A DNA stretch of 63,641 nt from IMG/VR virus record IMGVR_UViG_3300036830_000465, positions 1 to 63,641 of that record, one strand, 5' to 3'. This document shows positions 10,501 to 63,404 of the stretch, piece by piece. The position numbers and the translations under genes were made by a program. Positions within the stretch are counted from its first letter, which is position 1, and each line of letters begins with the position of its first letter. The DNA is from a virus (lineage: Duplodnaviria; Caudoviricetes). Below the pieces are notes generated by a model. It saw only the letters and a list, made by a program, of their open reading frames with translations, did not search any database and was not told the DNA's origin.

Positions 10501-10684
10501 CGTTCAGCGGAAACGAATCGGCAGCTGGCCAGACAATCAAGTTGTACCAGGTGGACGGATCGGCAAGTACGGCGAGAGGAAACCGGGCCCCATGCCCGGA
10601 CTGCAGGGTGAGGCTCAGTCCCGATAAGGCAGGGCTCGGTGCGGCGAGAACCGTCGAGTAGGCCAGATTCGTTCTCGGGTCCAT
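7532..10684 (-). CDS. Long Ser/Ala/Val-rich coiled-coil fibre protein
   Basis: N-terminal EIVRV...GDVLTL..RAQEGT anchor-like motif; repeated SNETSNR/SVETAAR and S-x-L-S-Q heptads; beta-rich C-terminal domain. Confidence 0.8.
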   Translation of the reverse strand: MDPRTNLAYSTVLAAPSPALSGLSLTLQSGHGARFPLAVLADPSTWYNLIVWPAADSFPLNGSAEIVRVSNRAGDVLTLDARAQEGTAALAIGANDNIARAATAKDFDDIESAFDSESAARESLSAAVSVLAAETAGLGQAASNETSARVAGDDALSAAVSVLSESIAAESASRASVDVQLASGISAVSQQLSVESAARTSVDGVFTAAIALASNAISAIAVGLALVSGLVSTEAVARQGQVDAVSQSASVISQALSNETSNRSSAVNRVSGALSNEQSVRVAAVDSLSQSASVISQALSNETSNRGSAIGQVSNTLSNLASAHDVLSNRVSANSAAGGGSGSVTSTELSNVKSVADAASNAASVVSQGLSVETAARIAKNDLLSNATSVLSQQASVLSQAASILSGALSNEISVRTSAVNAVSQAASVLSQGLSNETSNRTSADAALSNSLSALAASHNTLSNTVSNLVSAGGGSGSVTSNELSAVSAKAASAINVVSNAASIISQALSVESAARVAKDDTLSQGISVLSQQVSTLSQALSLLSQGLSNEASNRASAVNVVSQAASVLSQQASTLSQGVSVASQGLSNEISNRQSAHNALSNSVSILSQQVSLLSQAVSVASQSVSVAANALSNETSNRISGVNAASNAASIVSQAVSIVSTAASNALSVANAASSAASIVSQALSVETAARISKDDTLSQAASVLSQQISVLTAQVSNLTSAHNVLSNRVSANSAVAAGTGSVTSDELSAVSAQAKSAIDVVSNALSNETSNRVSAAAALLNSVSILSQQISVLSQGVSVVSNALSNETSNRISGVNAASNAASIVSNALSAETANRVSAVNALSQGLSVISQQASVISTVLSNEASVRASAVNAVSQDVSVLSQQVSVLSAVVKGPITRVLASPVVISATSLTNIAGLSAAVVAGGIYQLQAFLYTLRGAAAQPYGFGLTFPAMVRARGKVYASGSALQGFQTISVVGQHVPFDGDAASGSVIVSTISATQISAFVTYTGLFVVSTTGVIQLQAKASTTTAAITIEAGSYIQVFKIA

Positions 10685-18368: not shown

Positions 18369-20081
18369 CTAGAGCCATTGATCCACCTCGTCGCTGGGGA
18401 CATATAACGCCGTACAGCGACAATTCTTCACGACCACACCATTGGCGATGTAATATCCTCTACGTGTTTCGAGGGTAAATACATGACCGCTAAAATCACT
18501 TCTTTCGACAGAGACGATCTTGTCCGTGCCCGTCAGGACAGACTCACGCTTGAGCAAATGGCAGAGCGCTTCGGCTGCAGCATTCCCCTTATATCGAAGC
18601 GCCTCGTAGAGTGGGATTTCGAACGAACGGGCGGGCGACTGAAATTTGATACCGCCGAGATCGTTGCGCGTTTCAAGCGTGGCGAATCGGTCAAGGCGAT
18701 CGCCGCGGCCTTGAATACGTCCAGAAACGTTATCGGCCGCCGACTTCACGAATCGCGCATCACGCCCCGCAATAGAAGCGAAGGCATGCTTCAGAGAATG
18801 GCGAATTCTACGGCTGAGGAGCGGAGCCGTTGGTCTGATGCCGCCCATGCTGCAGTTCGCGGGAACCGCCAGCATTTCATCCGTACGGCCCTTACAAGGA
18901 ATTGCAAGATCGGTCGGGGAGAACTGGACATGATTGGCTGGCTCGGTGAGCGCGGCATTGCCTGCGTTCCGCAGAAGCCGGTCCAGTCGTATGTAATCGA
19001 TATCGCCTGCGCCCCGGTCGCCGTAGAAATTTACGTTCTGATTAGCAATCCGATGACTTTCGTGAAGCGCCGAAACCGAGCGATAGAAATCATGAAATCC
19101 GGATGGAGCTTTATCGGCGTTTGGATTTCGCAGAGACACCCGGTCTTGATCGAAGCGGCCGCTGATCACGTGGTCGCCTTCATTCAGGAGTCCAAGGGCT
19201 TTCCAGCCGGAGAGCGTCAGTACCGGGTGATTCGGGGTTCCGGTGAGCTTTACGCCGCTGGCCGTTTGGATGGTGACCACCTGACCGACATATAGCTGCC
19301 GGAACAGGCCTGCAGCATCCGGCGATTCAAATTCAGTCTCACCGATAAAGCAGTTCGCTATTTCTTCGATCGGTCCATTGGGGTCCAGGGGATAAAGGAG
19401 TCCGTTGCTGAAGGTGTCATCCATGTCCACCGCCTCCCGGATCTGATGCGACTCCCGCACCTTCTCATCCTGAGAGTTCGACCAGATCTTCTGGAGGTCG
19501 AGACCGGTCGCCTTCGCATTGATGTAGTCGCCGCCACTGGCGGCAATGCCGGTTTCCACCTGAGCAATCAACTCCGAGCGCGACACGCTCATTTCGTCGA
19601 ACAGGTCGCGGATATCCTTCGCGGTCTCGACAATGCTGTTGCCGTTTTTGATGCCTTCGGCCACGCGCACCGAAACGCGCTTCAGTGTGGTCTCGGCGAT
19701 ATCGTCGGAGACTTTGGCAACGCGGGACTTGGCAAACGCCGTCGCCTGCTTATCGAACAATTTCAGGTCGATGTTGACGCCGAGGTCGTGCAGCCCGGCA
19801 TTGTTCTGCGTGCCGGTCAGCTTCATCGCGCCTTTGATTTTGACCTGCAGCAGCTTGTTCCATTCCTTCTGGGACTCCGATAACACCTCAGTCACGGCAA
19901 TGTCGATCGAGTGGCCATCGTTGAAATCGATCTGCCGGGAGGCCTCCAGGCCGGTAATGCGATCGGCAATCATACGGCCCTGCTTTCGGAATAATGGCTT
20001 GAGCTTCTTTGCGAACTCGCGCTCGTAAGCGAGGAGTTTGGCCGACCGCTTCTGCTGGTATTCTTCAATCGTTTTTACCGT
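18369..20081 (-). CDS. MuF-like minor head protein containing an intein; frame open back to the A9 run at the portal 3' end
   Basis: RSELIAQVET, KIW....D.KVR.SH, FSNGL.YP.DP, N|CRC; first in-frame ATG at 19973. Confidence 0.85.
   Translation of the reverse strand, partial: TVKTIEEYQQKRSAKLLAYEREFAKKLKPLFRKQGRMIADRITGLEASRQIDFNDGHSIDIAVTEVLSESQKEWNKLLQVKIKGAMKLTGTQNNAGLHDLGVNIDLKLFDKQATAFAKSRVAKVSDDIAETTLKRVSVRVAEGIKNGNSIVETAKDIRDLFDEMSVSRSELIAQVETGIAASGGDYINAKATGLDLQKIWSNSQDEKVRESHQIREAVDMDDTFSNGLLYPLDPNGPIEEIANCFIGETEFESPDAAGLFRQLYVGQVVTIQTASGVKLTGTPNHPVLTLSGWKALGLLNEGDHVISGRFDQDRVSLRNPNADKAPSGFHDFYRSVSALHESHRIANQNVNFYGDRGAGDIDYIRLDRLLRNAGNAALTEPANHVQFSPTDLAIPCKGRTDEMLAVPANCSMGGIRPTAPLLSRRIRHSLKHAFASIAGRDARFVKSAADNVSGRIQGRGDRLDRFATLETRNDLGGIKFQSPARSFEIPLYEALRYKGNAAAEALCHLLKRESVLTGTDKIVSVERSDFSGHVFTLETRRGYYIANGVVVKNCRCTALYVPSDEVDQWL
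18423..19352 (-). mobile_element. Intein (310 aa) in MuF
   Basis: Starts CFIGET, block B TPNHPV, ends VFTLET....Y.ANGVVVKN followed by +1 Cys; splits the conserved NCRC motif. Confidence 0.88.
18483..19295 (+). CDS. HTH-HTH plus Vsr/DUF559-like endonuclease nested antisense in the intein
   Basis: Two HTH segments (LEQMAERFGCS, SVKAIAAALNTS); E.....L...GI....QK....Y.IDIA...VAVEI nuclease-type motif. Confidence 0.78.
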   Translation: MTAKITSFDRDDLVRARQDRLTLEQMAERFGCSIPLISKRLVEWDFERTGGRLKFDTAEIVARFKRGESVKAIAAALNTSRNVIGRRLHESRITPRNRSEGMLQRMANSTAEERSRWSDAAHAAVRGNRQHFIRTALTRNCKIGRGELDMIGWLGERGIACVPQKPVQSYVIDIACAPVAVEIYVLISNPMTFVKRRNRAIEIMKSGWSFIGVWISQRHPVLIEAAADHVVAFIQESKGFPAGERQYRVIRGSGELYAAGRLDGDHLTDI

Positions 20082-21454
20082 TTTTTTTTACGGACGGCGG
20101 TTAATACCAAAGAACGGGAAGCGGAGGCGGATCCGGAATCACCGTCCCCCTCATCGGGCGGCGGCACGCCCAGCACGGCCTTGTACTGCGACACGAACTC
20201 GCTGTGGCTCATATCGTCGGTCCCATCACCGGCCGGAGCAAATCCCAGGGCGGCGCGGTATTCTCCGCGGCTGATGCCATCGGCGAGCCACTGCTTGGTG
20301 GCCAGGTCGGTCTGTTCTTTCTCGTCCCAGGGATCGATGTTCGTGTAGGTGTAAACCAGATCCAGAATCTTCGGATCATTGGCGAGTTTGGCAATGCGGG
20401 GAATCACACGCTCGGTAATCCGGTTGGCCAGCGCGATACCGTAGGGCCGGACCGACTCTTCGATGCTGGCCGCCTGGCTGACCTCACCCTGGCTGCGGTT
20501 CACATCGCGCTCGATATTGAAATCCTGAGCCTTGAGCCGGAACGAAAACGCAAACACGCGGATCAGGATTTCCCAGTACTTGAGATACATCCCGTCGTCG
20601 TCGAGCGCCTTCAGCTGCAGCGTTTCTGGCTTGCCCATGCCGCCGAAAATGCCGGGCTTGGCGCGGCCAGTCAGCGTCGATTCCCAGTAATTCTGAAACC
20701 GGTCGACCATCGTCTGGTCGGCGGCCTCTCCCAGGGAAACCAAAAACGCAGGGTAAGCATCGGAAGCGACGTTGGCCTGATAGTTGGACAGCTTCAAGTA
20801 GGCGTCCATAGTGCTCAGCGCGACTTCGAGTGGGGACACGCCATAGGCCGTCGACGAGCGCCGGCGCATGATGATCGCTTCAATCTGGGAATCCAGCAGC
20901 GGGACAGGTTTCGGGCCGCCCTGCTGGACCCAGCGCGGCTTTGTGGGATCGCCGGCCCAGAGTTCGGTGCGCTCCAGACACCAGCCGGGAATCGGGATCA
21001 GCGCCAGAATGTCGTTCGGTACCGGCGCCGGCGTGGGTTTTTCCACGTATTCAAAGACACCCATGTCGAACGTCAGCTGATCCTCGACAATCTGCCCGAC
21101 AAACGTGGGCCAGTCGCCATCGTCGATGTTCGGATTGTCGAGCACGCGGCGCACGGTATCGATCTGTTTGGAATAGTCCACGCTGTCGTCGATGTGTTCG
21201 GGCGACGGCTCGATGCTGTATTCCAGCGCCTTCACCTTGTCCGTGATGAGGGTAATGGCACGCGATGCAATGGGAGTTTCTGCAAGCTTGATCAGCGTGC
21301 GCCAGTCGCGCCGCAGCTTTCGGGATTCGCTGGAGCCTCTCGGCCGCGGAACGCCACCAAACCGCAGCTGGGCCGCGGGAATGGTCACCTGCTCGGCCGC
21401 CCGCAGTTCGGGTAACGGCTGGAGCAATCCAAACTTTTCGAGAAGCTCTCTCAA
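20075..21454 (-). CDS. Portal protein
   Basis: 459 aa after TerL; LDNPN, YGVSPLE motifs. Confidence 0.88.
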   Translation of the reverse strand: MRELLEKFGLLQPLPELRAAEQVTIPAAQLRFGGVPRPRGSSESRKLRRDWRTLIKLAETPIASRAITLITDKVKALEYSIEPSPEHIDDSVDYSKQIDTVRRVLDNPNIDDGDWPTFVGQIVEDQLTFDMGVFEYVEKPTPAPVPNDILALIPIPGWCLERTELWAGDPTKPRWVQQGGPKPVPLLDSQIEAIIMRRRSSTAYGVSPLEVALSTMDAYLKLSNYQANVASDAYPAFLVSLGEAADQTMVDRFQNYWESTLTGRAKPGIFGGMGKPETLQLKALDDDGMYLKYWEILIRVFAFSFRLKAQDFNIERDVNRSQGEVSQAASIEESVRPYGIALANRITERVIPRIAKLANDPKILDLVYTYTNIDPWDEKEQTDLATKQWLADGISRGEYRAALGFAPAGDGTDDMSHSEFVSQYKAVLGVPPPDEGDGDSGSASASRSLVLTAVRKKKR

Positions 21455-21712: not shown

Positions 21713-23092
21713 TTAAAACATGAAAACGAGTTTCTGTTTGCGCACCTGCTCCAACGCATAGCGAATGGAATCGATGACGTGATTCTGCTTGTCAACCGGC
21801 ACCGGCAGCACCAGGCCGGACTGCGGATCGACTTTCCACGAGTAATTGCGCAGCTCCCGCAGGGTGTTCACGCAGCGCGGGTGAACGACGACGTCATAGC
21901 TCTTGATGAACTCGATGCCGTCCTTGACCGAGTTCGCGCCTTTTTCCGCGGCGATCATCTTCGGGAAACCATGGCTCTTCATGTGCGCGATGGTTTCCGG
22001 CCGCGCCGAATCGGCCCGGATGGGCCAGTCCCGGGAGCCGGGAATTCCCGGACAGTCGCGCCACCGGTTCATGCCGTCCGACTCCCATGCCTCGACGTTC
22101 AAGCCGCGCAGCTGGCGGTCTGCGGTGCCACCGAACAGGAATGGCAGGTAGGCGATATCGCAATGCTGCGCATAGGCCTCGTAATCGATGTAGAGGGTTT
22201 TCTCTTCGATGAACGTGCGCACCAGCACACTCGGATCGACCGCATAGCCCCAGTCTCCGCCGAAGAAAAAATGAGTGCCTTCCTTCGGCTCCGGGAATTC
22301 TCCGGGCTTCGCCTCTCGAAAGTTTTTAAAGATCCGCGCCTCGGAATTGCGTTCGTAGCCGCCCATCCAGATGTGTTCGTACTTGTCGGAATCGCGCTTG
22401 CGGTCCCATTCCATATCGACACGCAACGATGACGGGAACCACGGATTGTCCCAGTAGTTCACCTGGCGGACGATGGCTTCCGGATGCAGCTCCCAGTTTT
22501 GCCCGGGCTTGCGCGGGCCGTTGCCGCGGAAGAAATCATCGACCGGATCGGAAGGGTTCGTGGGATTCCAGGAGAACCACAGTTCGGCACGTTCCGCCAG
22601 CTGCAGATCCATGACATCGGTGGATTCCGAATCTGTCGGCGCGCTGGCAGGCCGGTCTTTCCGGATGGTCGGCGTCAGCTTTTCGAAGCTGGCTTTCGAA
22701 ACCGTCTGCGCCTCTTCGACCCAGACGCGGTCGATGCCTTCCATGGATTTGATCGAGTTGATGCTGCTGCGCAGTCCGGCAAACACGAACAGGGAATTGT
22801 TTTTCCGGCCGCGGATTTCCGTGTCCGTCGATTCGAACAGATCCGACAGGCCAAGCGCGGCAATCTTGTCATCGAGCAGCAGCTTCACCGAATCTTTGAT
22901 CGATGCCTGAATCTCACGGCAGCAGAGCGTGCGGTACGGACGGCTGACACTGGTGGTAATCAGCGCCTCGGCGATGGAATGACTCTTTGCGGAACCGCGG
23001 CCGCCCCAGACGCCTTTGTAGCGCATCGGCTGATAGAGGAAATCGAAGACTTCCGGGATGTGCGATTTAACGTGGAGTGTCGGACTTGACAA
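21713..23092 (-). CDS. terL: Terminase large subunit (PBSX family)
   Basis: GGRGSAKS Walker A, WVEEAQ Walker B, GGDWG, ADSARPETI, NHVIDSIRYA. Confidence 0.95.
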   Translation of the reverse strand: MSSPTLHVKSHIPEVFDFLYQPMRYKGVWGGRGSAKSHSIAEALITTSVSRPYRTLCCREIQASIKDSVKLLLDDKIAALGLSDLFESTDTEIRGRKNNSLFVFAGLRSSINSIKSMEGIDRVWVEEAQTVSKASFEKLTPTIRKDRPASAPTDSESTDVMDLQLAERAELWFSWNPTNPSDPVDDFFRGNGPRKPGQNWELHPEAIVRQVNYWDNPWFPSSLRVDMEWDRKRDSDKYEHIWMGGYERNSEARIFKNFREAKPGEFPEPKEGTHFFFGGDWGYAVDPSVLVRTFIEEKTLYIDYEAYAQHCDIAYLPFLFGGTADRQLRGLNVEAWESDGMNRWRDCPGIPGSRDWPIRADSARPETIAHMKSHGFPKMIAAEKGANSVKDGIEFIKSYDVVVHPRCVNTLRELRNYSWKVDPQSGLVLPVPVDKQNHVIDSIRYALEQVRKQKLVFMF

Positions 23093-50291: not shown

Positions 50292-52907
50292 TTAAGGCGT
50301 TTGCGTCACTGTGGCAGCCAGTCGTCCGGCCACCGTCCCGTCAATCGTGGCATCCTGCCCAGCGGTAAAGATTTTGTTGACGTCCGGCCCCCACAGCAGG
50401 AAATGCCCGCCGCTGGAGCCGTCCCAGAGCGCCAGCTGCGTCACGGTGACCGCGGGCATGGAATCGAATTCCACCAGTGCTTGATAGTCGAGGGAGAAGA
50501 GTGTGTTGCCCAGCAGCAGCGTCCCTGTGTCCGCCCAATCCGCAATGGTGGCAATCTGGCGCGCGTAGGAACCGCCAGCGACTTCATTGCCGCCGGTGTC
50601 GTCCTTCGCTCCTGTGTGCAATGCCCAATAACAGGGCGCGCTGGTAAAGCCGGTAGCCTTGAAAATGTATTCGAGTAATTTGTTGGCCAGGTACACGCTG
50701 AAGTTTGCCGAGAGCTTGACGACGAGCGAGCCCACGTCGAAAAACGGCGCTTTCCCGGCCTTCAGGGTCACCGGGTAATTCAGGGTGACGCCCATCAGGA
50801 ACGTTCCACCGCTGGAGGAATCCCAGAACCCCACATCCGTGATGGTGGTCAGCGGTGTCGCCGTGAACTGGATCAGCGTCCGGTTTGCAATTTGACGATT
50901 GGCTGCCGTACCCCAAAAGGAAGCGTTTGCCGCAAACCGCCCGTAGCTGCCGCCGGTGACCTCGTTTGCGCCAGTGAGTCCGGTACGCCCCGTATGCAGC
51001 GAAATGTAAATCGGCGACACCAGAAAATCGATGTCCTTGAGCACCTTGTCCAGTAGCGATTGCGCAAACGAATCCGGAGGCGGTGGTGGTGGAGGCGGTG
51101 AACCCGAGAGCGGGATCCCGATCGCGCCCACATAGAACGAGCCGCCGGTGTCGCCGTCCGAAATGCTGATCGCGTTGATGCTCGTGGTCCCGGCCAGCAT
51201 GTCCATCCAGGAGGAGAACGTGACGCCGGCATCAATGGAGACCCGGTACTGGCCAGCATGGCCGGCGGCATCCAGTTGCAGGCGAGTGTCGTATGGCATA
51301 TCCGGAACGTAATCGCCCAGATCGATGAAGCTGGAGGCGCCGTAGTCGAACGCCTGGATCTTGCCGCCCGGTCCGAGGCGCACGGCCGCGCGGTCGCTGG
51401 CATCGAGCGAACCGCCCGACTGCAGCAGAAACGCCATGCTGCTGGTCGGGGTGTTGTAATCGGCCTGCAGAATGACAATCACGGTGCCCGTATCGAATGG
51501 CGCGCAGAATCGGCGCGCTCCGGAGAATGTGGTCGGTGTGCACTTCGCCGCGTTGCCGGCATCGCCGCCGGCCGGTGCGGTGACCACCGTTACCGGCTGG
51601 TCGCCCTGGTCTTCCCAGTCGCCCACCCAGTTGGTCCCGCCGCTGTTGCCGGCCAGCGGAGCGCTCGTGGTGTAGGCAAAATCCTCGATCGGCGGATCCC
51701 CGGAAGGAGGCGGCGCGGAGCCATCGAACTCGAACGCACCACGAGACGGAGGGCTTGAAAACAGCAAACCATCGGCATCGAGCGCAACCCCAACATCGAC
51801 GCCAGCGCCAATGCAGGGGCTCCCGGACTGGAGATGGAAATCCTCGGCGGACGGATCGACAAACAGCGGGTCACCGTCCGAATCGACCCAGTTGTGGGAT
51901 AGCGTGGTGCCGACACCGTTGTCTGTGATGCCCGCCCCGTTGCCCACCGCAATACAGTTTTTGGCAGCGCAATCGATTTCGGCGGATCCGAAAATGAGAA
52001 TCGCGTCGAGCTGGTTGCCGTACAGAACGCAATTGAGAAGTTGCGCCAGAGTCTCAGAATTACTGAGCTGCACCCCAGGCCCGGAATTGTTGTAGATGAG
52101 GCAGCAATAGACGAGATTCCGGTCGCCCGACTGCAGAACAAGGCCACCCGCGCCACCGTTTTCCACGAGGTCGTTGTCGTGGATTCGCACGTACCGCAGG
52201 ATGCAATCGTTAATGACGCCGCCATGCCCCTGATCATTGAATTGGATTCCGTAGCCGTGCGGGGCGTGGTCGTACTCGCCGCCATCGATCAGCAGGTACG
52301 ATCCGACGTTCCAGTACAGGTTATGGTTCTGATTCGTGTCGTTGCCGTTGTGGTGGCCATGGCAGTTGATCAGCTCGATGTAGTCGCCGCCCAGCAAGGC
52401 CCCCTGGTTGAACGCGCCCGTCCACTCCACGTTAACGAATCGGAAGTGATTCATCCCGGCGCCGCTGGCTTGAATGGCGCAATTTAGCTGAGCGGTACCG
52501 CGCCCGGCCGGAATGTTGTACGTCGGGTCGCCCGGGTCAAGGAAGCCGTTCGAGCCGGTGGAATCAAATTTGATGTCCTGAACGATGACGTAATCGCCAT
52601 TGAACATCGCGCAACCGATCGGATCGGTGGAAGTGGCGACGACGGTTTCGCCGGGATATGCGGAGATCTTGACCGGCGCGGACCAGTCGGTGCCGGAGGG
52701 GTAATCCCAGGCATCGAAACTCGGACCCATGCCAAAGATGTATCCAGCATTGGGATGCGTTCCAGCGAGAGTTCCCTCGCGAATCCAAAGCGTCTCGCCG
52801 GGCCCGCGGTCCAGAACGGCAGTCTTCAGATCATTGAATGGCGCACCTATCGACCCATCGCCACCGCCAGCCGCGCCAACGTCGAGGAAGAATTCCGTGA
52901 CTGGCAT
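50292..52907 (-). CDS. Tail spike/fibre: parallel beta-helix, lectin-like domain, tandem C-terminal repeats
   Basis: N/G/I-rich helix repeats, DP.FVD....DFHLQSGSPCIGAG, two Y..LHTG...G.NEV.GGSY.R domains. Confidence 0.75.
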   Translation of the reverse strand: MPVTEFFLDVGAAGGGDGSIGAPFNDLKTAVLDRGPGETLWIREGTLAGTHPNAGYIFGMGPSFDAWDYPSGTDWSAPVKISAYPGETVVATSTDPIGCAMFNGDYVIVQDIKFDSTGSNGFLDPGDPTYNIPAGRGTAQLNCAIQASGAGMNHFRFVNVEWTGAFNQGALLGGDYIELINCHGHHNGNDTNQNHNLYWNVGSYLLIDGGEYDHAPHGYGIQFNDQGHGGVINDCILRYVRIHDNDLVENGGAGGLVLQSGDRNLVYCCLIYNNSGPGVQLSNSETLAQLLNCVLYGNQLDAILIFGSAEIDCAAKNCIAVGNGAGITDNGVGTTLSHNWVDSDGDPLFVDPSAEDFHLQSGSPCIGAGVDVGVALDADGLLFSSPPSRGAFEFDGSAPPPSGDPPIEDFAYTTSAPLAGNSGGTNWVGDWEDQGDQPVTVVTAPAGGDAGNAAKCTPTTFSGARRFCAPFDTGTVIVILQADYNTPTSSMAFLLQSGGSLDASDRAAVRLGPGGKIQAFDYGASSFIDLGDYVPDMPYDTRLQLDAAGHAGQYRVSIDAGVTFSSWMDMLAGTTSINAISISDGDTGGSFYVGAIGIPLSGSPPPPPPPPDSFAQSLLDKVLKDIDFLVSPIYISLHTGRTGLTGANEVTGGSYGRFAANASFWGTAANRQIANRTLIQFTATPLTTITDVGFWDSSSGGTFLMGVTLNYPVTLKAGKAPFFDVGSLVVKLSANFSVYLANKLLEYIFKATGFTSAPCYWALHTGAKDDTGGNEVAGGSYARQIATIADWADTGTLLLGNTLFSLDYQALVEFDSMPAVTVTQLALWDGSSGGHFLLWGPDVNKIFTAGQDATIDGTVAGRLAATVTQTP

Positions 52908-55401: not shown

Positions 55402-56189
55402 GCCGCCATCCTCACGCCGCGGGACTCTTCGGTGAGGACAAGATCGGCAACGGTGATCCGGCGGTTAACGACCTCTTCGACCGTCGAGGAACTCAAGGTC
55501 ACCACATAGCCCTTGTACACGGCCGGATCCGGAATCAGGAACAGGTAGATCGCATCACCATTGAGCGAGTCTGTGAAATCGGTTAAGGTCTGCGCCTGCG
55601 CGTCGGTCATTTCCTCGAAGGTGAACACGAACTCGAAATATTTCCGGATCTTGTTGACGCTGCGCGCGCCCAGTTCGCTGCGCTTCGAGTTGTTCTCCTG
55701 CACGTGGCGGCGGCGCCAGTCGTAACTGAAGTTGTTATCCAGCGTGACGGCCAGGCCAATCATCAGACGCCCGATGGAATAGGCGTGCGAGGCAGTAATT
55801 GCGTCGACGATGCCGATGGTCAGGTAGCGATCGGTGCGCGTGGAGGCCGTCCGGAAGTACGCATCGATCTCCCGGTACGTCATCGTGTCGGTGTGGTCGA
55901 TCACGCCGGACGTGGTGCCGCTTTTAATGGTGATGACGACGCTCGGATCGAAATCGTGATTGACGAGCATGATCTGGTTCCACGGTGTCGGCGCGCCCAG
56001 ATCGACGGTAATGAGGTTGTTGTAGCCGCCGGTAACGTTCGTCGTGGTATACCGCTGCGAGATGTCGGTGGTCTGCAGGTTGAGCTGCGAACTGCCCGGC
56101 GCCGCGCTGTAGTTCACGCCCCAATTGGTGGCATTGCTCAGCGGCTGAAACAAATCGTCGGTGGATCGCAGGAAGGTGAAGAAGCTCAT
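55398..56189 (-). CDS. Distal tail protein
   Basis: Follows tape measure; L.NH.F, IGRL.IG. Confidence 0.62.
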   Translation of the reverse strand: MSFFTFLRSTDDLFQPLSNATNWGVNYSAAPGSSQLNLQTTDISQRYTTTNVTGGYNNLITVDLGAPTPWNQIMLVNHDFDPSVVITIKSGTTSGVIDHTDTMTYREIDAYFRTASTRTDRYLTIGIVDAITASHAYSIGRLMIGLAVTLDNNFSYDWRRRHVQENNSKRSELGARSVNKIRKYFEFVFTFEEMTDAQAQTLTDFTDSLNGDAIYLFLIPDPAVYKGYVVTLSSSTVEEVVNRRITVADLVLTEESRGVRMAA

Positions 56190-59100
56190 ACGCGCGCGGC
56201 GCTCCCGGCGCGGTTCACGGCTTCCTTGAGCCTGCCATCGGTTTGCAGTCCGCGGATGATTTCTTCTCTGATCTTTCGGCCGGTATCTGCCGGTGAGTCG
56301 GTTGCCGTTCCGTAAACGTGAATGTCGCCAACGGTGATATTGCTTCGGCCGCTATCTCTCGACGATCCCCGGTTCTGCGCCGCCGTGGTGACCCGCTCCC
56401 CCTGGTGCAGGAAATACGCGCCATCCCAAGGCACCCACGGCGTCCCCATCGCGTATTGGGTCAGCGGCGTGCCGACTTCGGTACCATAGCTGACCGTGCC
56501 GTAACCCGGCGAGTAGGTGTTGACGAGGTTTGTGTTGGAGGTATCCGGCGCGACCGTGCGCACGATGCTGTCAATCCAGTTGAGCCAGTTGTTGACAAAC
56601 GGACTTTCTGTAGCGAAGAACTGATCGCCGACCTGCTTGCGGTCGCTGCTGTTGCCCTCCCAGCGGATAACCGCGCCGGTGACATCGCTCCACGCCTGAT
56701 ACATGGCCTGCTGCGCATTGGTGGCCTCGTAGGGCTGAATGGTTCCGGCATCGACGCCGGTGGTCACGGCATTGATGATTCCGGCGAATTGCTGATCGAA
56801 CGGATTCTGGAAGTTTTTAACCAGATCGTTGGCTTCAAAATGCGCCATGGATTTGATCAGGCCGGTGATACCCAGAACCGAACCGGCAACGGCCAGCGTG
56901 ATCGGATTGGTGGCAAAGGCGCCGATGGAAGCAAGAGTTCCGCCGCCAGCAGTTCCGGCGGTAGCCGCGGCGGCGCTCCCAGCACCAACGACGTTATCGG
57001 CGCTGAATCCGGCCTTCGCCAGGGCCGCGCTGTAACCCCCATCTCCACCCAAAGCGTCGAGGAATCCGGCGGTCAATGATGTCAATTTCTCCCGCAGCGG
57101 TCCCAGCGCCGCATCAATGATGGAATTCAGGGTCTTATTGAAAAACGTCTCGAACTCGTTTTGGATCGGCCCGATGAACCAGCCCGCGATTTTCTCTCCG
57201 GCATCTTTCGCGACATTGCCCATCGTGAGGGCGCCCTGATGAAAGTGATCGAAGAAGGTGTCTGTGATGTTGCCCCACGTCAGGGCCTCGCCGTGCAGCG
57301 TGGCGCTGATGCCTTCGATGCTGGTATTGACCGATGCGACGTGCGCCTCATACTGTTTTTGCGCCGCGTCGAGGGCCGCCGTACGCTTCTTCTCGTCCGA
57401 TTCATACTGCGCCGTGGTGACCTGATCGAGCGAGGCCTGGAAGCCCGCGATGAGTTTGTCCTCACCTACCAGAAAGGCAGCATTGGACGCCGACAGGTTT
57501 TTTGAGGCATCGGCAACAGCCTGCATTCCGCTGGTAATCAATTTGGTTTCGTCGTCGAAGAATTTCTCCAGCGAGGCGGCGCTGGTTTTCGCGAGACCGG
57601 TATTGATCTCGCTGATCATGTGGGACCAATCGTTGATCTGCTTGGTGTTGTTATCGAGGAAGGTCTTAAAATCGAACGAACTCGCCAGTGCCTGAACGCT
57701 GGCATTGACCGTGATTCCGGCCGCATGAAATTTGCTCGCCATGTCGGAGGCCTGCTTGCCCATTTCCGGCAGCAGCTGATTCAGCGTTAGTCCGCGGCCT
57801 TGAAGCAAAAGAATCGCGCCGGCCAGGTCTTTTTCCGCGGCCGTGGTGGGAATGACCGACGCGGTAAGACTGGCGACCGCGTCGGCATGCCTTTTCGCCT
57901 CCTCTTCCGCCTGCTTCAATGCGAGAGTAACTTTATCGATTACCGGCGGAACGATGCCATGGGCCTTTATGAAATCCTGAATTTTTGCGGTGTTGTCGCC
58001 AATGCCATCGGAATTCGTCAGTAGGGCATTGCGCATATCCCACAGGTTTGCGGAGGTCTTTAAGATGGAATTTCCGGCATCGGTCAACGTCTTTCCGAGC
58101 CCGGTCTGACCGAGAGCCGTTGCCAGCGTGCCCGCGCCTTGTCCCAGGGCGCCAAGATAGAAAATCAAATCCGCCGTGACACCCAGAACACCAGCAGCCA
58201 AAACATCCTTGTAATGGAGGGCCGCAGTGGTCAGGCCAACGAACGCGAGAATGGAGAGACTGATCGGGTTCGCATCCATTACGAGATTGAGGGCCACCCA
58301 TGCGGTTTTCAGATTCGCAATTCCAACAATCAAACCGCCAGTCCCTAGCAGAACCGCGCCTACTTCGACCGCCGCTCGCGATATATCCAGAAGGGAGGTC
58401 ACGACGTCCGGGTTTTCCTTCGCCCAGTCTTTTACCTGGACAATGGCGTCGGTCGCCGAAGTGATCCATTTCTCCAGAATCGGATAAGCCTCTTCGCCAA
58501 TCGCATGCGACAGGCCCGTAAAACTGAGATGTAAATTGTCGAGCGTGTCTTCGAACTGATTGGCCTTGTCTGCGGCTTCCTTGTCGAAAACAATTCCCAG
58601 CCGGTGCGCCTGATCCGCGAGTTCGGAAATGCCGTCACGCCCGAGATTCAATACGGGAATCATGGCCAACCCGCCGCGGCCAAAGAGTTCGACGGCAAGT
58701 GCGGATTTTTCCGCACCGTCCGCCATGTGAGAAAACTTATCGGCGACGTCCAGAAGAACATCCTGCGTGGGGCGCAGCTGGCCGTTAGCAGAGGTGGCGC
58801 TGATGCCGAGTTTCAGGAACGTATCAGCGGCCGCGCCTCCCTTCGTCTGGGCGTCTTCCATGTGCGTCGCGAGAATCCGCAGCCCGGAGGTCATGGCATC
58901 AAGGGAAGTGCCTTGCTGGCTGGCAACGTAGCCCCACTCGGAAAGCGCAGTCGCGGAAAGACCGGTGCTCTGGTAAAGCGTGTAAATCTGAGACCCGGCC
59001 TTTGATGTCGAGTCCGCCATTTCAAGGAGCGTCCCAATGATCGTCACGCCAGCCCCGGCAATGGCGGCCCCGGACAAAGCGAATGTCGAGCCGACCTGTG

Positions 59101-59254
59101 TCCAACTGACTTCCATCTCCTTTGCCGCGTCGCCAGACTTTTCGCCTAAGTCCTCCGCAGCGTCAGAAGTGCGCTCAATGCCCTGCGCAATCTTCTCGAA
59201 TGTCGAGATGACGCCTTCTTCGTTGATCTTGGTGATGAATTGGATGGTTGGCAA
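56186..59254 (-). CDS. Tape measure protein
   Basis: 1022 aa Ala-rich helical; A.ELFGRGG..M.P.L; YAMGT.WVP.DG..FLHQGERV. Confidence 0.9.
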   Translation of the reverse strand: MPTIQFITKINEEGVISTFEKIAQGIERTSDAAEDLGEKSGDAAKEMEVSWTQVGSTFALSGAAIAGAGVTIIGTLLEMADSTSKAGSQIYTLYQSTGLSATALSEWGYVASQQGTSLDAMTSGLRILATHMEDAQTKGGAAADTFLKLGISATSANGQLRPTQDVLLDVADKFSHMADGAEKSALAVELFGRGGLAMIPVLNLGRDGISELADQAHRLGIVFDKEAADKANQFEDTLDNLHLSFTGLSHAIGEEAYPILEKWITSATDAIVQVKDWAKENPDVVTSLLDISRAAVEVGAVLLGTGGLIVGIANLKTAWVALNLVMDANPISLSILAFVGLTTAALHYKDVLAAGVLGVTADLIFYLGALGQGAGTLATALGQTGLGKTLTDAGNSILKTSANLWDMRNALLTNSDGIGDNTAKIQDFIKAHGIVPPVIDKVTLALKQAEEEAKRHADAVASLTASVIPTTAAEKDLAGAILLLQGRGLTLNQLLPEMGKQASDMASKFHAAGITVNASVQALASSFDFKTFLDNNTKQINDWSHMISEINTGLAKTSAASLEKFFDDETKLITSGMQAVADASKNLSASNAAFLVGEDKLIAGFQASLDQVTTAQYESDEKKRTAALDAAQKQYEAHVASVNTSIEGISATLHGEALTWGNITDTFFDHFHQGALTMGNVAKDAGEKIAGWFIGPIQNEFETFFNKTLNSIIDAALGPLREKLTSLTAGFLDALGGDGGYSAALAKAGFSADNVVGAGSAAAATAGTAGGGTLASIGAFATNPITLAVAGSVLGITGLIKSMAHFEANDLVKNFQNPFDQQFAGIINAVTTGVDAGTIQPYEATNAQQAMYQAWSDVTGAVIRWEGNSSDRKQVGDQFFATESPFVNNWLNWIDSIVRTVAPDTSNTNLVNTYSPGYGTVSYGTEVGTPLTQYAMGTPWVPWDGAYFLHQGERVTTAAQNRGSSRDSGRSNITVGDIHVYGTATDSPADTGRKIREEIIRGLQTDGRLKEAVNRAGSAARV

Positions 59255-60516: not shown

Positions 60517-60810
60517 TTACAGTGGGCGATCCGGACAGCCGGTGCACCCGTCGGGATTCAGCGCAATCAAAGAACACGCTGGCTTCAACGCGGCTATCTT
60601 CTCAGAATTACCCGCCGCCCGCAATACCAACTCGAATCGATGACGTTCCGGACACTGACTGTCGGCCAGAAGCCTGAAGTCGAACACTTTCAGGTGGAGC
60701 GCCCTTCTCTTGCCATCGTACTCGATCGATGCGGAATCCACTTCAATGCGGTGGCCGTTATATTCGATCTCGATCGCATGGCGATTCTTGTCCAGTCTGG
60801 CGGTGATCAT
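60517..60810 (-). CDS. Hypothetical protein (left flank of cassette)
   Basis: ATGA-coupled to the HTH gene. Confidence 0.6.
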   Translation of the reverse strand: MITARLDKNRHAIEIEYNGHRIEVDSASIEYDGKRRALHLKVFDFRLLADSQCPERHRFELVLRAAGNSEKIAALKPACSLIALNPDGCTGCPDRPL

Positions 60811-61070
60811 TTTCTCAATCGTACGCCAGGACCGCCGCCATTCTTCTCAATAAAAATCACTCCAGCTTTTGTGAGCGCCGCACAGATCCGCTCCATTGTG
60901 CCGGATCGCTGGTTTGCCCCTGCGGCTTCAATCATGACGAGAGTTCGCAGTGATACCCCGCACTCTTCCGCCAGTCTATCGCGCGACCAATTCAGAAGTG
61001 CACGCGCCGCCCTGATCTGAGAGGCCGTAATTTCAGTTGCATGTTTTGTGCAATATTCTCTTGACTGCAT
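60807..61070 (-). CDS. XRE HTH regulator of the inverted cassette
   Basis: QIRAARALLNWS...LA...GVS..T...E...GV.FI..NGGGPGVRL; start uncertain. Confidence 0.85.
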   Translation of the reverse strand: MQSREYCTKHATEITASQIRAARALLNWSRDRLAEECGVSLRTLVMIEAAGANQRSGTMERICAALTKAGVIFIEKNGGGPGVRLRK

Positions 61071-61097
61071 CGCGTGCAGTATTGCACGATTCGTGCA
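61037..61097. promoter_or_regulatory. Three TGCA-bounded palindromes (operators) overlapping a TTGACT -35 element
   Basis: TTGCA-N7-TGCAA 61037-53; ACTGCA-N5-TGCAGT 61064-80; TGCACGA-T-TCGTGCA 61083-97. Confidence 0.65.
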
Positions 61098-61135
61098 TCT
61101 GTCAAACGACAGAAAAACACACCAAGGAGAATGCA

Positions 61136-61798
61136 ATGGCAACTACGAAGACCTCGGAAACAAAGTCGGTGGCAATTCCAGCGCCGAGATTCGGAAGGGC
61201 TGAATTCCTGATTGAGGGCACCGCCCCGCTCGTCATCCATCGGTTTTCAGCGAAGACAAAAGAGCAGATGAAACAAAAGATGGAGACCGGCAAGGCCGCC
61301 GGGAGCCGCAAAAACCGTGAGGCCAAACAGACCGATGATCTTTACAAAGAAGCGCGCTATATCAGCAAGGAAGGCTGGGACGGGTTTCACGCCGGAGCCG
61401 TGCGCAACGCTCTCATTTCAGCGTGCCGCCTTGTCGGCTTCAAAATGACGCTCGCTAAACTCTCGCTATTCGTCGAGGCCGATGGGCGCGATGCGGAAGA
61501 GCCCCAGATTCCACTCGTTCGAATCATCGGAAAATGCGTCAAGCAGGAAGATATGGCCAGGGTCGAAACCGGACAGCCTTACGTCACAGTTCGGGCGGCG
61601 TTCCATGAATGGAAGGCTAAGATCCGGCTGCGCTGGGACGAGGATCAGTTCACACTACAAGACGTTACCAATCTTCTCTCGCGAGTTGGAATGCAGGTCG
61701 GCCTGTGTGAGGGGCGCCCCGATTCTCCGAATTCTGCAGGAATGGGATGGGGCTTGTTTGAGATTTCCAAAACCGAACCAAGAAAGGCGACAGCGTGA
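61136..61798 (+). CDS. RAMP/Cas7-like protein (putative RNA-guided effector)
   Basis: IEGTAPLVIH first strand, A.AVRNAL..A helix, C-terminal Gly-rich loop VGLCEGRP....GMGWGLF; AAGGAG RBS. Confidence 0.6.
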   Translation: MATTKTSETKSVAIPAPRFGRAEFLIEGTAPLVIHRFSAKTKEQMKQKMETGKAAGSRKNREAKQTDDLYKEARYISKEGWDGFHAGAVRNALISACRLVGFKMTLAKLSLFVEADGRDAEEPQIPLVRIIGKCVKQEDMARVETGQPYVTVRAAFHEWKAKIRLRWDEDQFTLQDVTNLLSRVGMQVGLCEGRPDSPNSAGMGWGLFEISKTEPRKATA

Positions 61799-62235
61799 CA
61801 AATCAGAAAATCATTTCGGAGCTTCGGCGCATCGCGAAAAAGCACGATGGCCTATTGAATCCATCGGACGTTGTCGAAGAGGCTCGCTCGAAATCTTCGC
61901 CGCTGCATGGAAAGTTCGAGTGGGACGATTCCGCGGCTGCGGAGCGTTACCGGCTCTGGCAGGCCCGTCAGCTTATCTCGGTTACCGTCGAATATGTCGG
62001 CGGCAATAAGGACGGCGTTCTTTCCAGAGTATTCGTAAGCCTCAGTTCGGACCGCAAAGAAGAGGGTGGCTACCGGACGATTGAAGCTGTCATGTCGAGG
62101 CAGGGAAGCCGCGAACGATTGCTTCAGGATGCGCTGGACGATATGCAGACATTCAGGGATCGTTATTCGGCGCTCAAGGAATTGGCCGGCGTCTTTGCGG
62201 CGATGCGCAAAGTCAGGGGCAAAGCAGCGGCATAG
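61795..62235 (+). CDS. Conserved partner protein of the RAMP-like gene
   Basis: GTGA-coupled; L.P..VV..AR...SPLH..FEWDD..AA..YRL.QAR.LI. Confidence 0.75.
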   Translation: MTNQKIISELRRIAKKHDGLLNPSDVVEEARSKSSPLHGKFEWDDSAAAERYRLWQARQLISVTVEYVGGNKDGVLSRVFVSLSSDRKEEGGYRTIEAVMSRQGSRERLLQDALDDMQTFRDRYSALKELAGVFAAMRKVRGKAAA

Positions 62236-62244
62236 AGACTCTTT

Positions 62245-62570
62245 GGCGTGGATGGGCAGGTGGGGTCGTGCACGAAATGGCCTGTGGCGGCTGGGAGAGC
62301 TAAGGATGGGAATGGCTCTGCAGGTTAGGCGAGTCGGGTCAATGTCGGGACGGGAGTGTTCTGGTGTGGATTGTTAAGGCGCGGCAGGTCAGGTCAGGAA
62401 TGTTCAGGTGCGGCCGGGGTAGGCTGGTGAGGCCTGGGGTGGCAGGACAGGCGAGGTACGGATTGGACTGGATGGCCCAGGAGTGGAAAGTTTCTGTAGG
62501 GCAGGCAAGGTGCGGTATGGAAAGTCGGGGCGGGAAGCGTCGCGGGTAGGTAAGACGCGGCAGGCAAGTC
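62245..62570 (+). repeat. 5-nt periodic GGNNN array in GGCA-delimited units (putative guide ncRNA)
   Basis: (G/T)GCAGG at 62255, 62319, 62383, 62441, 62500, 62559; 39 of 56 pentamers start with GG and 53 of 56 with G. Confidence 0.85.
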
Positions 62571-63404
62571 TTAGCTTCCGAGAATGGGGACTGGATCAAG
62601 CACCAGCTCCCCCATTCTGTCCTCGCGAAAATAGAAGTAACGCTCGAACCAATCGCGCAAGGCGGGCTCACCGCCGCGTTCGTAGGCCGCATAGTAGCTT
62701 CGCCAGTGCGCCCCCTCGTGTTCTGGAAGATTCGCCACCCGGTAAGCCAATCCGCCGTTGATCGATTTTTTTATGAAATGCTCGGCGCTTCTGTAGGGAA
62801 AGTGTGCGATGCGCAGCGCCGTCGTTTTCTTCGTTTGAAGAAGGCTCCCATCCGCATTCAGCGCGCTGTGATTGCCTTGCTGGACGGTCATCCCTGGGCT
62901 TGCGCGGAATATAACTTTCGGTAACACGTTCGGCGGCTTGTGCCGATGCTGGATGCGGAGGAAGGGATTCGCGTTCTCCTTGTCCATGTGACAAGGAAAG
63001 TAGTTGGCCATCGGAATTTCGAAACCGCGAACGTCGTCTTCCATTTCGAAGGACCGGAGATAGTCGCTGAAGGTTTCGCCGGTGTTGCAGATTAATAACT
63101 CGTCGGCATCGAATGGCACCAGCCAGGGGCGCTCGACGCCGGATAACTCGATTGCCCTGCCCACGAGAGATGTCATCTTCTGGCTCTGGTAGTAGCCCCG
63201 CTCCGGATCGTCGATAAGAATGATTGGGATGCCCGCCGATTTCTGAATGGTGGAAATCTGATAGCGCGTGCTGTCGGATGAGGCATTATCCGCAATGATG
63301 ATGCCGTCCACGCCGGAGGCGATGAGATGGAGTAGGGTGAAGGAAATGATGTCGGCTTCGTCCTTTACCATTCCAACAGCCCAGACCTGCGGAGCCTTGC
63401 TCAC
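62571..63404 (-). CDS. GT2-like glycosyltransferase (right flank of cassette)
   Basis: MVKDEADII, IADN.SSDST, WLVPFDADE, HFPYRS. Confidence 0.88.
   Translation of the reverse strand: MSKAPQVWAVGMVKDEADIISFTLLHLIASGVDGIIIADNASSDSTRYQISTIQKSAGIPIILIDDPERGYYQSQKMTSLVGRAIELSGVERPWLVPFDADELLICNTGETFSDYLRSFEMEDDVRGFEIPMANYFPCHMDKENANPFLRIQHRHKPPNVLPKVIFRASPGMTVQQGNHSALNADGSLLQTKKTTALRIAHFPYRSAEHFIKKSINGGLAYRVANLPEHEGAHWRSYYAAYERGGEPALRDWFERYFYFREDRMGELVLDPVPILGS

What the first reader, a model, noticed from the sequence alone, without database searches (positions are those of the whole stretch)
62245..62570. Array grammar: 4-nt GGCA delimiter plus 11-12 GG-N-NN pentamers
Seen: unit lengths are 64, 64, 58 (39+19 via a GGCT variant), 59 and 59, i.e. 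5n-1. Unit 2 = TGCA GGTTA GGCGA GTCGG GTCAA TGTCG GGACG GGAGT GTTCT GGTGT GGATT GTTAA GGCGC. Unit 5 = GGCA GGCAA GGTGC GGTAT GGAAA GTCGG GGCGG GAAGC GTCGC GGGTA GGTAA GACGC. Positions 1-2 are conserved while positions 4-5 vary freely and differ between units, so repeat and spacer are interleaved. A decaying microsatellite would not keep phase while diversifying only these positions.
Basis: seen in the sequence. Interest (0 to 1): 0.85.

Follow-up and report, generated by a model that had tools for sequence, protein, structure and literature searches.

The report
Phage VIPR guide-RNA array (staggered)
This G-rich stretch is the guide-RNA array of a phage VIPR system, an RNA-guided DNA-silencing system first described in 2026, so it is real and well read but not new.

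Summary
The 335-nt spacer 62236-62570 has a G periodicity of about 4.9 nt, far beyond chance (power 10.16; 500 simulated sequences reached at most 2.71). It parses into GG-N-NN pentamers broken by 4-nt GGCA, TGCA or GGCT steps, giving units of 64, 64, 39+19, 59 and 59 nt.

The interpretation, that repeat and spacer are interleaved, is also right. It matches VIPR (Viral Interference Programmable Repeat) systems, published as 2026 preprints.
- **Adjacent protein:** the 221-aa protein two genes upstream (61133-61798) has a Cas7-like RAMP fold. Its family profile hits the solved SUSP1 Vipr protein (E 5.2e-6).
- **Linkage:** homologues of this protein carry same-strand period-5 arrays in 24 of 25 viral loci and 3 of 4 genome loci. 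None of 25 loci sharing only the downstream glycosyltransferase has one.
- **Architecture:** there is no 3' tail, and the 5n-1 step fits the published "staggered arrays" with 1-nt overlap.

No target was found, and expression could not be tested. What is left beyond the papers' text is a conserved GGCA|GG junction, and staggered arrays still lack experimental confirmation.

The parts
61133..61798 (+). vipr gene: 221-aa RAMP (Cas7-like) protein, phrog_4652
   Evidence: No Pfam family; phrog_4652, function unknown. AF2 model pLDDT 93.3. The top Foldseek PDB hits are Cmr4, Csm3 and type VII Cas7 chains, E 4.3e-5 to 1e-3. A 75-sequence family profile hits PDB 36pp_D 'SUSP1 Vipr protein' at E 5.2e-6.
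61795..62235 (+). candidate vipr-accessory gene (vap): 146-aa protein, phrog_15946, overlapping the vipr stop by 4 nt
   Evidence: A homologue (39-54% identity) lies directly downstream of vipr in 16 of 25 related viral loci. AF2 model pLDDT 88.7. Only weak winged-helix-like matches for residues 1-97, VIA Z at most 6.2, which is inconclusive.
62245..62258 (+). array leader: two pentamers (GGCGT GGATG) and the first junction GGCA (62255-62258)
   Evidence: Segmentation.
62259..62323 (+). predicted guide vr1, 13 pentamers, ends TGCAG (junction TGCA at 62319-62322)
62323..62387 (+). predicted guide vr2, 13 pentamers, ends GGCAG (junction GGCA at 62383-62386)
62387..62445 (+). predicted guide vr3, split by an extra 4-nt step (GGCT, 62422-62425) into 8 + 4 pentamers; ends GGCAG (junction 62441-62444)
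   Evidence: The 4-pentamer piece is below the published 9-16 range, so it may be a register-breaking 1-nt deletion.
62445..62504 (+). predicted guide vr4, 12 pentamers, ends GGCAG (junction 62500-62503)
62504..62563 (+). predicted guide vr5, 12 pentamers, ends GGCAG (junction 62559-62562); the array decays after 62567

Best explanation
The array is the vrRNA (guide RNA) array of a phage-encoded VIPR system, and belongs to the tail-less 'staggered' architecture.

Proposed mechanism:
1. The vipr-vap operon (61133-62235, + strand) is transcribed on into the array.
2. Vipr, a minimal Cas7-like RAMP, polymerises along the RNA with one protomer per pentamer. It sequesters each GG(Y) and exposes the two variable bases.
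3. The 11-13 exposed dinucleotides of a guide jointly recognise double-stranded DNA in which every third base is skipped (NNxNNx...). This silences transcription of a competing phage, prophage or satellite.
4. Guides are delimited by a one-base register slip at a conserved GGCA|GG junction, not by a structured tail.

Shown here: the periodic grammar, its conservation, its physical linkage to the protein, the protein's RAMP fold, and its sequence relationship to a solved Vipr.

Inferred from the published type II systems (SUSP1, P. fulva): transcription and processing, filament formation, the 1-nt-skip target rule, and the silencing function.
For: 1. The period of about 4.9 nt is far beyond chance and unique in the record.
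2. The grammar matches published vrRNAs of 9-16 YNNGG repeats with conserved GGY and hypervariable NN (papers read). Here the guides have 12-13 pentamers, with G1 0.97, G2 0.74, position 3 G-depleted, and positions 4-5 at 1.95-1.97 bits.
3. Linkage to the protein. 24 of 25 viral loci with a homologue (48-79% identity) of the 221-aa protein have a same-strand period-5 G array (power 4.7-8.9), downstream and sometimes also upstream. These 25 loci represent 21 distinct phages, because four pairs are duplicates. 3 of 4 genome-collection loci have one too. In contrast, 0 of 25 loci sharing only the GT2 neighbour and 0 of 17 unrelated loci exceed power 2.2.
4. Protein identity. The AF2 model (pLDDT 93.3) has Cmr4, Csm3 and Cas7 chains as its top Foldseek hits. 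The family profile hits SUSP1 Vipr at E 5.2e-6. SUSP1 R138 aligns to R154 (nearly invariant), D177 to E193, and R179 to invariant R195. The structure paper names R138 and D177 as G-contacting residues whose alanine mutants abolish silencing, and R179 as the residue contacting Y3.
5. The two-gene vipr-vap layout flanked by long non-coding arrays fits the published locus description.
6. The 5n-1 step fits 'staggered vrRNA arrays ... 1 nt overlapping positions' (Fig. S18 legend). In the homologous arrays, 4-nt steps outnumber 6-nt steps 227 to 34, and 114 of the 227 are GGCA.
7. The RNA folds no better than shuffles (z -0.30), as expected for a protein-held unstructured guide. No self-target was found, matching the published control.
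Against: - No natural target was found for any guide.
- Expression and processing are untested.
- The Vipr relationship to the solved protein covers only the C-terminal 48 residues at sequence level. SUSP1 W178, which stacks on G2, aligns to an invariant Gly here.
- Position 3 is A in 28% of pentamers, although the SUSP1 pocket is described as excluding purines.
- The window array is somewhat less regular than its relatives (G2 0.74 against 0.81), and vr3 has an internal register break.
- The mechanism has been demonstrated only for tailed type II systems. The paper's text says that only the hammerhead-interspersed and single-vrRNA architectures were confirmed by small-RNA sequencing, not the staggered one.
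Confidence: 0.9

Rival explanations
1. It is a VIPR array, but a decaying or inactive one. It would be carried as a remnant, or serve as a decoy or competitor RNA, rather than as working guides.
For: G at position 2 is 0.74 here against 0.81 in relatives. vr3 carries an extra 4-nt step that leaves a 4-pentamer piece. No target was found. Solo or decoy vrRNAs are described in the abstract of the competition paper.
Against: vipr is intact, with the family's invariant residues. vap is intact and overlaps vipr, which suggests translational coupling. Four of the five guides have 12-13 in-register pentamers with canonical junctions. The failure to find targets says little, given exact-match scans of sub-patterns only.
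Confidence: 0.06
2. It is a DNA- or transcript-level structural element unrelated to guide RNAs. Options are a G-quadruplex or R-loop-prone G-skewed tract such as an origin, or, read on the minus strand, a C-rich Rho-dependent terminator for the convergent glycosyltransferase gene.
For: GC skew reaches +0.44 to +0.48 across the region. Nine two-tetrad G4-type motifs are present. The region lies between convergent genes.
Against: None of these needs a strict 5-nt phase, a conserved GGCA|GG junction, or maximal entropy confined to positions 4-5. There is no canonical G3+ quadruplex motif. The array travels with the RAMP gene and not with the GT2 gene: 24 of 25 against 0 of 25 loci. In other loci it also lies upstream of vipr.
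Confidence: 0.02
3. It is a decaying pentanucleotide microsatellite, or a translated low-complexity region.
For: Tandem short period. Open frames of up to 81 codons exist in the G-rich sequence.
Against: Tandem Repeats Finder calls nothing in the array. Variation is confined to positions 3-5, and phase is kept over 320 nt. Period-3 power is 0.45, against 2.7-8.2 in the flanking genes. The 4-nt steps would shift any reading frame. Homologous arrays differ freely in length and content.
Confidence: 0.01

Closest known systems
VIPR systems with staggered vrRNA arrays (bioRxiv 10.64898/2026.04.26.720920, also PMC13142463; text and Fig. S18 legend)
   Same: A phage-encoded minimal RAMP (Vipr) plus one accessory gene, flanked by non-coding arrays of GGY/NN pentamers. 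Consecutive guides overlap by 1 nt, which is the 5n-1 step here. Guide lengths fall within 9-16 repeats.
   Different: I could read only the legend, not the figure or the supplementary data. I therefore cannot say whether this Vipr clade or the GGCA|GG junction is the one shown. 'GGCA' occurs 0 times in the held main texts of the three VIPR papers. Per the text, this architecture was not among those confirmed by small-RNA sequencing.
Type II VIPR of Escherichia phage SUSP1 and the P. fulva prophage (same paper; structures in 10.64898/2026.04.26.720927; PDB 36pp)
   Same: Pentamer code, a Vipr of about 200 aa with a RAMP fold, conserved thumb Arg (R138/R154) and G-loop Arg (R179/R195), and arrays downstream (and in relatives upstream) of vipr-vap.
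   Different: SUSP1 vrRNAs are about 100 nt, with an invariant 3' tail of about 40 nt that forms a pseudoknot. Here there is no tail, only a 4-nt junction, and the guides abut. The sequence relationship is remote (single-sequence E 0.043, profile E 5.2e-6, C-terminal 48 residues only). W178 aligns to Gly. Position 3 tolerates A.
Class 1 CRISPR backbone (Cas7, Csm3, Cmr4 on crRNA)
   Same: RAMP fold (Foldseek E 4.3e-5 to 1e-3). One protomer per short RNA segment, with periodic flipped bases (from the papers).
   Different: 6-nt rather than 5-nt periodicity; a contiguous spacer flanked by repeats rather than interleaved constant and variable bases; no cas operon and no CRISPR repeats here.
TRAP binding to the trp leader (recalled, not tested)
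   Same: A protein oligomer reads about 11 short G-containing motifs spaced about 5 nt apart on single-stranded RNA.
   Different: Different fold (ring, not RAMP filament). The spacers there carry no information. The resemblance is recalled from general knowledge only.

Membership tests
VIPR system | An adjacent gene encodes a Vipr protein: a minimal RAMP with RRM core, G-loop and thumb, in a non-CRISPR context | tested here: met
   AF2 pLDDT 93.3. The top Foldseek hits are Cmr4, Csm3 and Cas7. The profile hits PDB 36pp_D SUSP1 Vipr at E 5.2e-6, with R138 and R179 equivalents conserved. No cas genes or CRISPR repeats are nearby.
VIPR system | Non-coding array of tandem pentamers with conserved GG(Y) and hypervariable NN, 9-16 repeats per guide | tested here: met
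   Four guides have 12-13 pentamers and one is split 8+4. Positions 4-5 carry 1.95-1.97 bits. Position 3 is pyrimidine in 64% here and 77% in relatives, so GGY is met loosely. The paper also lists NNNGG variants.
VIPR system | The array is on the same strand as vipr, flanks it, and co-occurs with it across relatives | tested here: met
   24 of 25 viral and 3 of 4 genome loci with vipr homologues have arrays. 0 of 25 GT2-only loci do.
VIPR system | A vipr-accessory gene (vap) in a two-gene operon | tested here: inconclusive
   A 146-aa gene overlaps the vipr stop and is conserved in 16 of 25 loci. Its fold matches are weak (winged-helix-like, Z at most 6.2). Its identity with any published vap1-6 could not be checked because the supplements are closed.
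VIPR system | vrRNAs are expressed, processed and bound by Vipr | not testable with these tools
   No sequencing run could be listed for the locus.
VIPR system | Guides match natural DNA targets by the 1-nt-skip (NNx) rule | tested here: inconclusive
   There is no hit above shuffled guides in the window plus 50 loci. Four exact sub-pattern scans of viral contigs and one of metagenome contigs gave 0, 0, 9, 7 and 1 hits. All are chance-like outside the seeded part. 104 guides from relatives show no skip-1 enrichment in about 0.6 Mb.
Type II (SUSP1-like) VIPR | An invariant 3' tail of about 40 nt (pseudoknot) after each repeat tract | tested here: not met
   Guides abut through a 4-nt junction. 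The junction logo shows no conserved sequence beyond GGCA|GG. The array folds no better than shuffles.
Staggered-array VIPR architecture | Successive guides overlap by 1 nt, so that the end of one marks the start of the next | tested here: met
   Unit lengths are 5n-1, with 6 junctions plus one internal step. In relatives there are 227 four-nt steps against 34 six-nt steps. The comparison rests on the Fig. S18 legend only.
CRISPR-Cas (class 1) | Repeat-spacer array with repeats of about 30 nt and a multi-gene cas operon | tested here: not met
   No direct-repeat family lies in the region. Only two genes are linked to the array. No Rfam CRISPR repeat family reached threshold.

The most novel reading that the evidence does not exclude
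In this very large, tail-less Vipr clade, the only constant element between guides is the GGCA|GG one-base register slip. It may be a guide-delimiting mechanism of its own. One option is that it acts as a cleavage signal for Vipr or a host RNase. The other is that it works with no cleavage at all: a 4-nt step breaks the 5-nt cooperativity of the filament, so each Vipr filament ends there, and one unprocessed transcript could carry several independent effector filaments. Either would be a guide-biogenesis logic distinct from the pseudoknot tails and hammerhead ribozymes shown experimentally so far.
Probability: 0.3. Interest if true: 0.55.

Novelty: new member of a known kind. Interest (0 to 1): 0.33.

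Why it matters
That code was published only in 2026, so the call is correct but the biology is already in print.

What this locus adds:
- **A clean example.** It is a natural example of the tail-less staggered architecture, which the paper's text does not list among the architectures confirmed by small-RNA sequencing.
- **Clade size.** The Vipr clade is very large. At least 4999 clusters at 90% identity match at E<=1e-3. The search of 50%-identity cluster representatives reported 2000 matches at E<=1e-3, of which 957 are at E<=1e-10.
- **A junction consensus.** Across 215 junctions the consensus is G .75, G .99, C .77, A .72, then GG .90/.88. It can be tested directly as a processing or filament-phasing signal.

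Five natural guides are defined here for target hunting in soil viromes.

Tried and rejected
- **Relatives of the record.** These cannot be drawn for a virus record, so I used the search for related loci instead.
- **146-aa protein in viral contigs.** It gave no relatives by pattern-seeded search, although tblastn on loci fetched through vipr found 16. The 257-aa upstream protein gave none.
- **Curated libraries.** Rfam gave only 5 sub-threshold chance-like matches and no hammerhead. Pfam, NCBIfam and PADLOC name neither protein.
- **DNA similarity.** The phage and plasmid collections hold no match to the array. The only hit, Cyanophage Cy-LDV1 at 71.8%, lies inside vipr.
- **Sequencing runs.** None was listed and no RNA holder was listed.
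- **Host inference.** It failed. The 4 genome-collection loci sit on short contigs of metagenome bins labelled Anaerolineales, Gemmatimonadaceae, Planctomycetota and Gammaproteobacteria, which I do not trust as hosts.
- **Target search, held sequence.** A scan for self-targets and cross-locus targets found nothing above shuffled guides. The best was 15 of 16 for the short vr3a piece, against a shuffle maximum of 14, which is not significant after multiple tests.
- **Target search, viral contigs.** Exact 10-dinucleotide sub-patterns of vr4 and vr5 gave 0 hits. 8-dinucleotide sub-patterns of vr2 and vr1 gave 9 and 7 hits. Outside the seed these match only 1-4 of 10 bases.
- **Target search, metagenome contigs.** One hit for vr4's first 10 dinucleotides. 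It lies in AT-rich sequence, in a frame with a stop, and 1 of the 4 remaining bases matches. I judge it chance.
- **Array evolution.** Close pairs of loci for measuring how arrays change were not available. vipr genes were either identical or at most 78% identical in DNA.
- **Ideas dropped.** TRAP-like ring binding, a CsrA sponge, small-terminase or pac sites, iterons and telomere-like repeats were considered early. They were dropped once the RAMP link appeared.
- **Not used.** Complex prediction was not used.

Full report
**What is there.** The window is the whole held record, a 63,641-nt virus record. It has phage hallmark genes: large terminase at 21713-23092 (-), portal at 20075-21454 (-) and tape measure at 56186-59254 (-). 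The finding lies in a 335-nt non-coding spacer, 62236-62570. The spacer sits between a 146-aa ORF (61795-62235, +; phrog_15946) and a convergent GT2 glycosyltransferase (62571-63404, -; PF13704).

- G makes up 153 of 335 bases.
- Autocorrelation shows a comb at 5, 10 and 15 that slips to 19, 24, 29... 59, 64.
- G-indicator spectral power peaks at period 4.9 with a value of 10.16. In 500 first-order-Markov simulated sequences the mean was 1.34, sd 0.31 and maximum 2.71. Nothing else in the record comes near this.
Pentamers starting GG are interrupted by 4-nt steps at 62255 (GGCA), 62319 (TGCA), 62383 (GGCA), 62422 (GGCT), 62441 (GGCA), 62500 (GGCA) and 62559 (GGCA). Unit lengths are 64, 64, 39+19, 59 and 59.
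- Over the 58 pentamers, position 1 is G in 97% and position 2 in 74%. Position 3 is G-depleted (9%) and 64% pyrimidine. Positions 4 and 5 carry 1.97 and 1.95 bits of entropy.
- The segmentation rewards GG, so positions 1-2 are partly ascertained. The Fourier result and positions 3-5 are not.
- Tandem Repeats Finder sees no repeat in the array. Period-3 power is 0.45, against 2.7-8.2 in the neighbouring genes. The RNA folds no better than shuffles (z -0.30). The region is therefore neither a microsatellite, nor coding, nor a structured RNA.

**What it travels with.** I fetched loci through each neighbour in turn.
- None of 25 viral loci with homologues (34-44% identity) of the glycosyltransferase has a period-5 signal; the maximum power is 2.2.
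- 24 of 25 viral loci with homologues (48-79% identity) of the 221-aa protein two genes upstream (61133-61798, +; phrog_4652) have a strong G array on the same strand (power 4.7-8.9). It lies mostly just downstream, and in several loci also immediately upstream. The one exception, L033, ends about 780 nt after the gene.
- Four pairs of these loci are the same phage sampled twice, so they represent 21 distinct phages, of which 20 carry arrays.
- Three of 4 loci from the genome collection also carry arrays, and 17 unrelated loci do not.
- The arrays in the relatives show the same grammar. In 1882 pentamers, G1 is 0.89 and G2 0.81. Position 3 is C .52, T .25, A .17, G .06. Positions 4-5 carry 1.96-1.97 bits.
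- 4-nt steps outnumber 6-nt steps 227 to 34. Of the 227, 114 are GGCA and 153 are NGCA. They lie mostly 44-59 nt apart.
- A logo of 215 unique junctions gives G .75, G .99, C .77, A .72, then GG .90/.88. The flanking variable positions show essentially no conservation.

**What the protein is.**
- The family is very large and unnamed. At least 4999 clusters at 90% identity match at E<=1e-3, none of the 120 listed has a Pfam domain, and the only names given are 'hypothetical protein'.
- The search of 50%-identity cluster representatives reported 2000 matches at E<=1e-3, of which 957 are at E<=1e-10.
- A single-sequence search of PDB sequences gave one weak hit, 36pp_D 'SUSP1 Vipr protein' (E 0.043). 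A 75-sequence profile raised this to E 5.2e-6 over the C-terminal 48 residues.
- In that alignment SUSP1 R138, D177 and R179 align to R154 (nearly invariant), E193 and R195 (invariant). W178 aligns to an invariant glycine.
- An AlphaFold2 model (pLDDT 93.3, pTM 0.86) has as its top Foldseek PDB matches the backbone RAMPs of type III and type VII CRISPR complexes. The best is Cmr4 6s6b_I at E 4.3e-5, followed by Csm3 chains and type VII Cas7 chains. Twelve chains have E<=1e-3. That copy of the PDB ends on 2026-04-08 and holds no Vipr entry.

**What is known.** A literature search on the PDB name led to three 2026 preprints from one group and a fourth from a language-model survey.
- 10.64898/2026.04.26.720920 (also PMC13142463). 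I read the abstract, the whole Results, the Discussion, Methods sections 18, 20 and 27, and figure-legend passages.
- 10.64898/2026.04.26.720927. I read the abstract and the whole Results.
- 10.64898/2026.10.15.759431. I read the abstract, Methods section 17 and passages.
- 10.64898/2026.10.21.760802. I read passages only.

They describe VIPR systems as follows.
- A minimal, mostly phage-encoded RAMP (Vipr), usually one accessory gene (vap), and flanking vrRNAs of 9-16 YNNGG repeats, in which GGY is conserved and NN is hypervariable.
- Vipr forms a helical filament with one protomer per repeat. It hides GGY and presents NN.
- The NN dinucleotides pair with double-stranded DNA while skipping every third target base, and transcription is silenced.
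- Natural targets are competing prophages and satellites.
- Seven types exist, with varied array architectures. These include 'staggered arrays with overlapping vrRNAs', whose legend says that individual vrRNAs derive from positions overlapping by 1 nt.
- The survey paper independently recovers 99 period-5 clusters next to Vipr-like folds.

**Fit.** The window locus meets the tested criteria.
- It has a RAMP gene related to a solved Vipr.
- The next gene is conserved in 16 of 25 relatives and overlaps the vipr stop.
- The array is on the same strand, is non-coding, and follows the GGY/NN grammar with guide lengths in range.
- The 5n-1 step corresponds to the 1-nt stagger. Each guide ends in a GGCAG pentamer whose last G begins the next guide.
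- It is not SUSP1-like type II. There is no 3' tail of about 40 nt and no conserved sequence beyond the 4-nt junction.
- I could not assign a type or match the 146-aa protein to vap1-6, because that information is in figures and supplements I could not see. Its model (pLDDT 88.7) gives only weak winged-helix-like matches for residues 1-97 plus a helical hairpin (VIA Z at most 6.2; no Foldseek match at E<=1e-3). This is compatible with, but does not establish, the 'predicted DNA-binding' vaps of the paper.

**What remains unshown.** Transcription, processing and Vipr binding are inferred.
- No sequencing run could be listed for this record.
- No target was found. The five guides have no match above shuffled-guide controls in the record itself or in 50 fetched loci, which agrees with the published absence of self-targets.
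- Exact sub-pattern scans gave 0, 0, 9 and 7 hits in viral contigs and 1 in metagenome contigs. All behave like chance outside the seeded part.
- 104 guides parsed from relatives show no preference for the 1-nt skip over 0-, 2- or 3-nt skips in the small amount of sequence held. The rule is therefore neither confirmed nor contradicted for this clade.
- The host is unknown.

**Points of difference worth recording.**
- Position 3 is A in 28% of pentamers here (17% in relatives), although the SUSP1 pocket is described as excluding purines.
- T at position 2 is more frequent here (17%) than in relatives (7%).
- vr3 has an extra register break.
- The tryptophan that stacks on G2 in SUSP1 is not conserved. 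A second glycine-rich segment with a conserved Trp (consensus GxGWGxF, residues 203-209) follows the aligned G-loop.

**Verdict.** I class it as a new member of a known kind.

The residual open point is how tail-less staggered arrays are delimited. The paper's text says that small-RNA sequencing confirmed the hammerhead-interspersed and single-guide architectures, not this one. The string GGCA does not occur in the held main texts of the three VIPR papers, although it may be visible in Fig. S18 or in logos I could not see.

Noticed in passing
window 60807-61142 (-), promoter-like site 61105-61078 (-): An Xre-type HTH_3 regulator gene (PF01381, E 5.4e-7) lies divergent from vipr. A sigma-70-like promoter match (10 of 12) lies inside its annotated 5' end, so the true start is probably a downstream ATG. 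No homologue was found next to vipr in any of the 25 related viral loci, so it is probably not part of the VIPR module.
   Followed up: partly
window 62581-62618: A 9-bp perfect hairpin (AGAATGGGG / CCCCATTCT) with an inner 4-bp stem lies just past the array, inside the 3' end of the convergent glycosyltransferase gene. It has no U-tract. It may stop transcription reading out of the array, or out of the GT gene.
   Followed up: no
window 61361-61752 vs BK059895.1 31497-31888: Cyanophage Cy-LDV1 (host Cylindrospermopsis raciborskii) has a stretch 71.8% identical in DNA to the vipr gene, annotated as hypothetical protein. This is likely another unannotated VIPR locus in a deposited phage genome.
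   Followed up: no
L039 4491-4920, 6171-7030, 7931-8060; L028 6161-6850: Some relatives carry far larger arrays than the window: up to about 860 nt in one block, and three blocks in one locus, upstream and downstream of vipr-vap.
   Followed up: partly
L028, L029, L036/L037, L046, L047: These vipr loci have arrays but no tblastn-detectable homologue of the 146-aa protein. In L028, L029 and L036/L037 a gap of about 450-700 nt between vipr and the array remains, which suggests a different accessory gene.
   Followed up: no
window 7532-10684 (-): A 1050-aa ORF with no PHROG match holds several families of internal direct repeats (D1, D2, D4, D6). It is probably a repetitive tail-fibre or decoration-type protein.
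   Followed up: no
L051-L054: Vipr homologues of 50-77% identity sit on short contigs of metagenome bins assigned to four different phyla. Either phage contigs were mis-binned, or this Vipr clade is spread unusually widely.
   Followed up: no
window 50292-52907 (-) and 18369-19973 (-): Head-protein-like PHROG hits occur in two distant parts of the record (phrog_240 at about 50-53 kb; phrog_15127 at about 18-20 kb). The vipr module is wedged between the tape-measure side and the record's end. The record may be circularly permuted.
   Followed up: no
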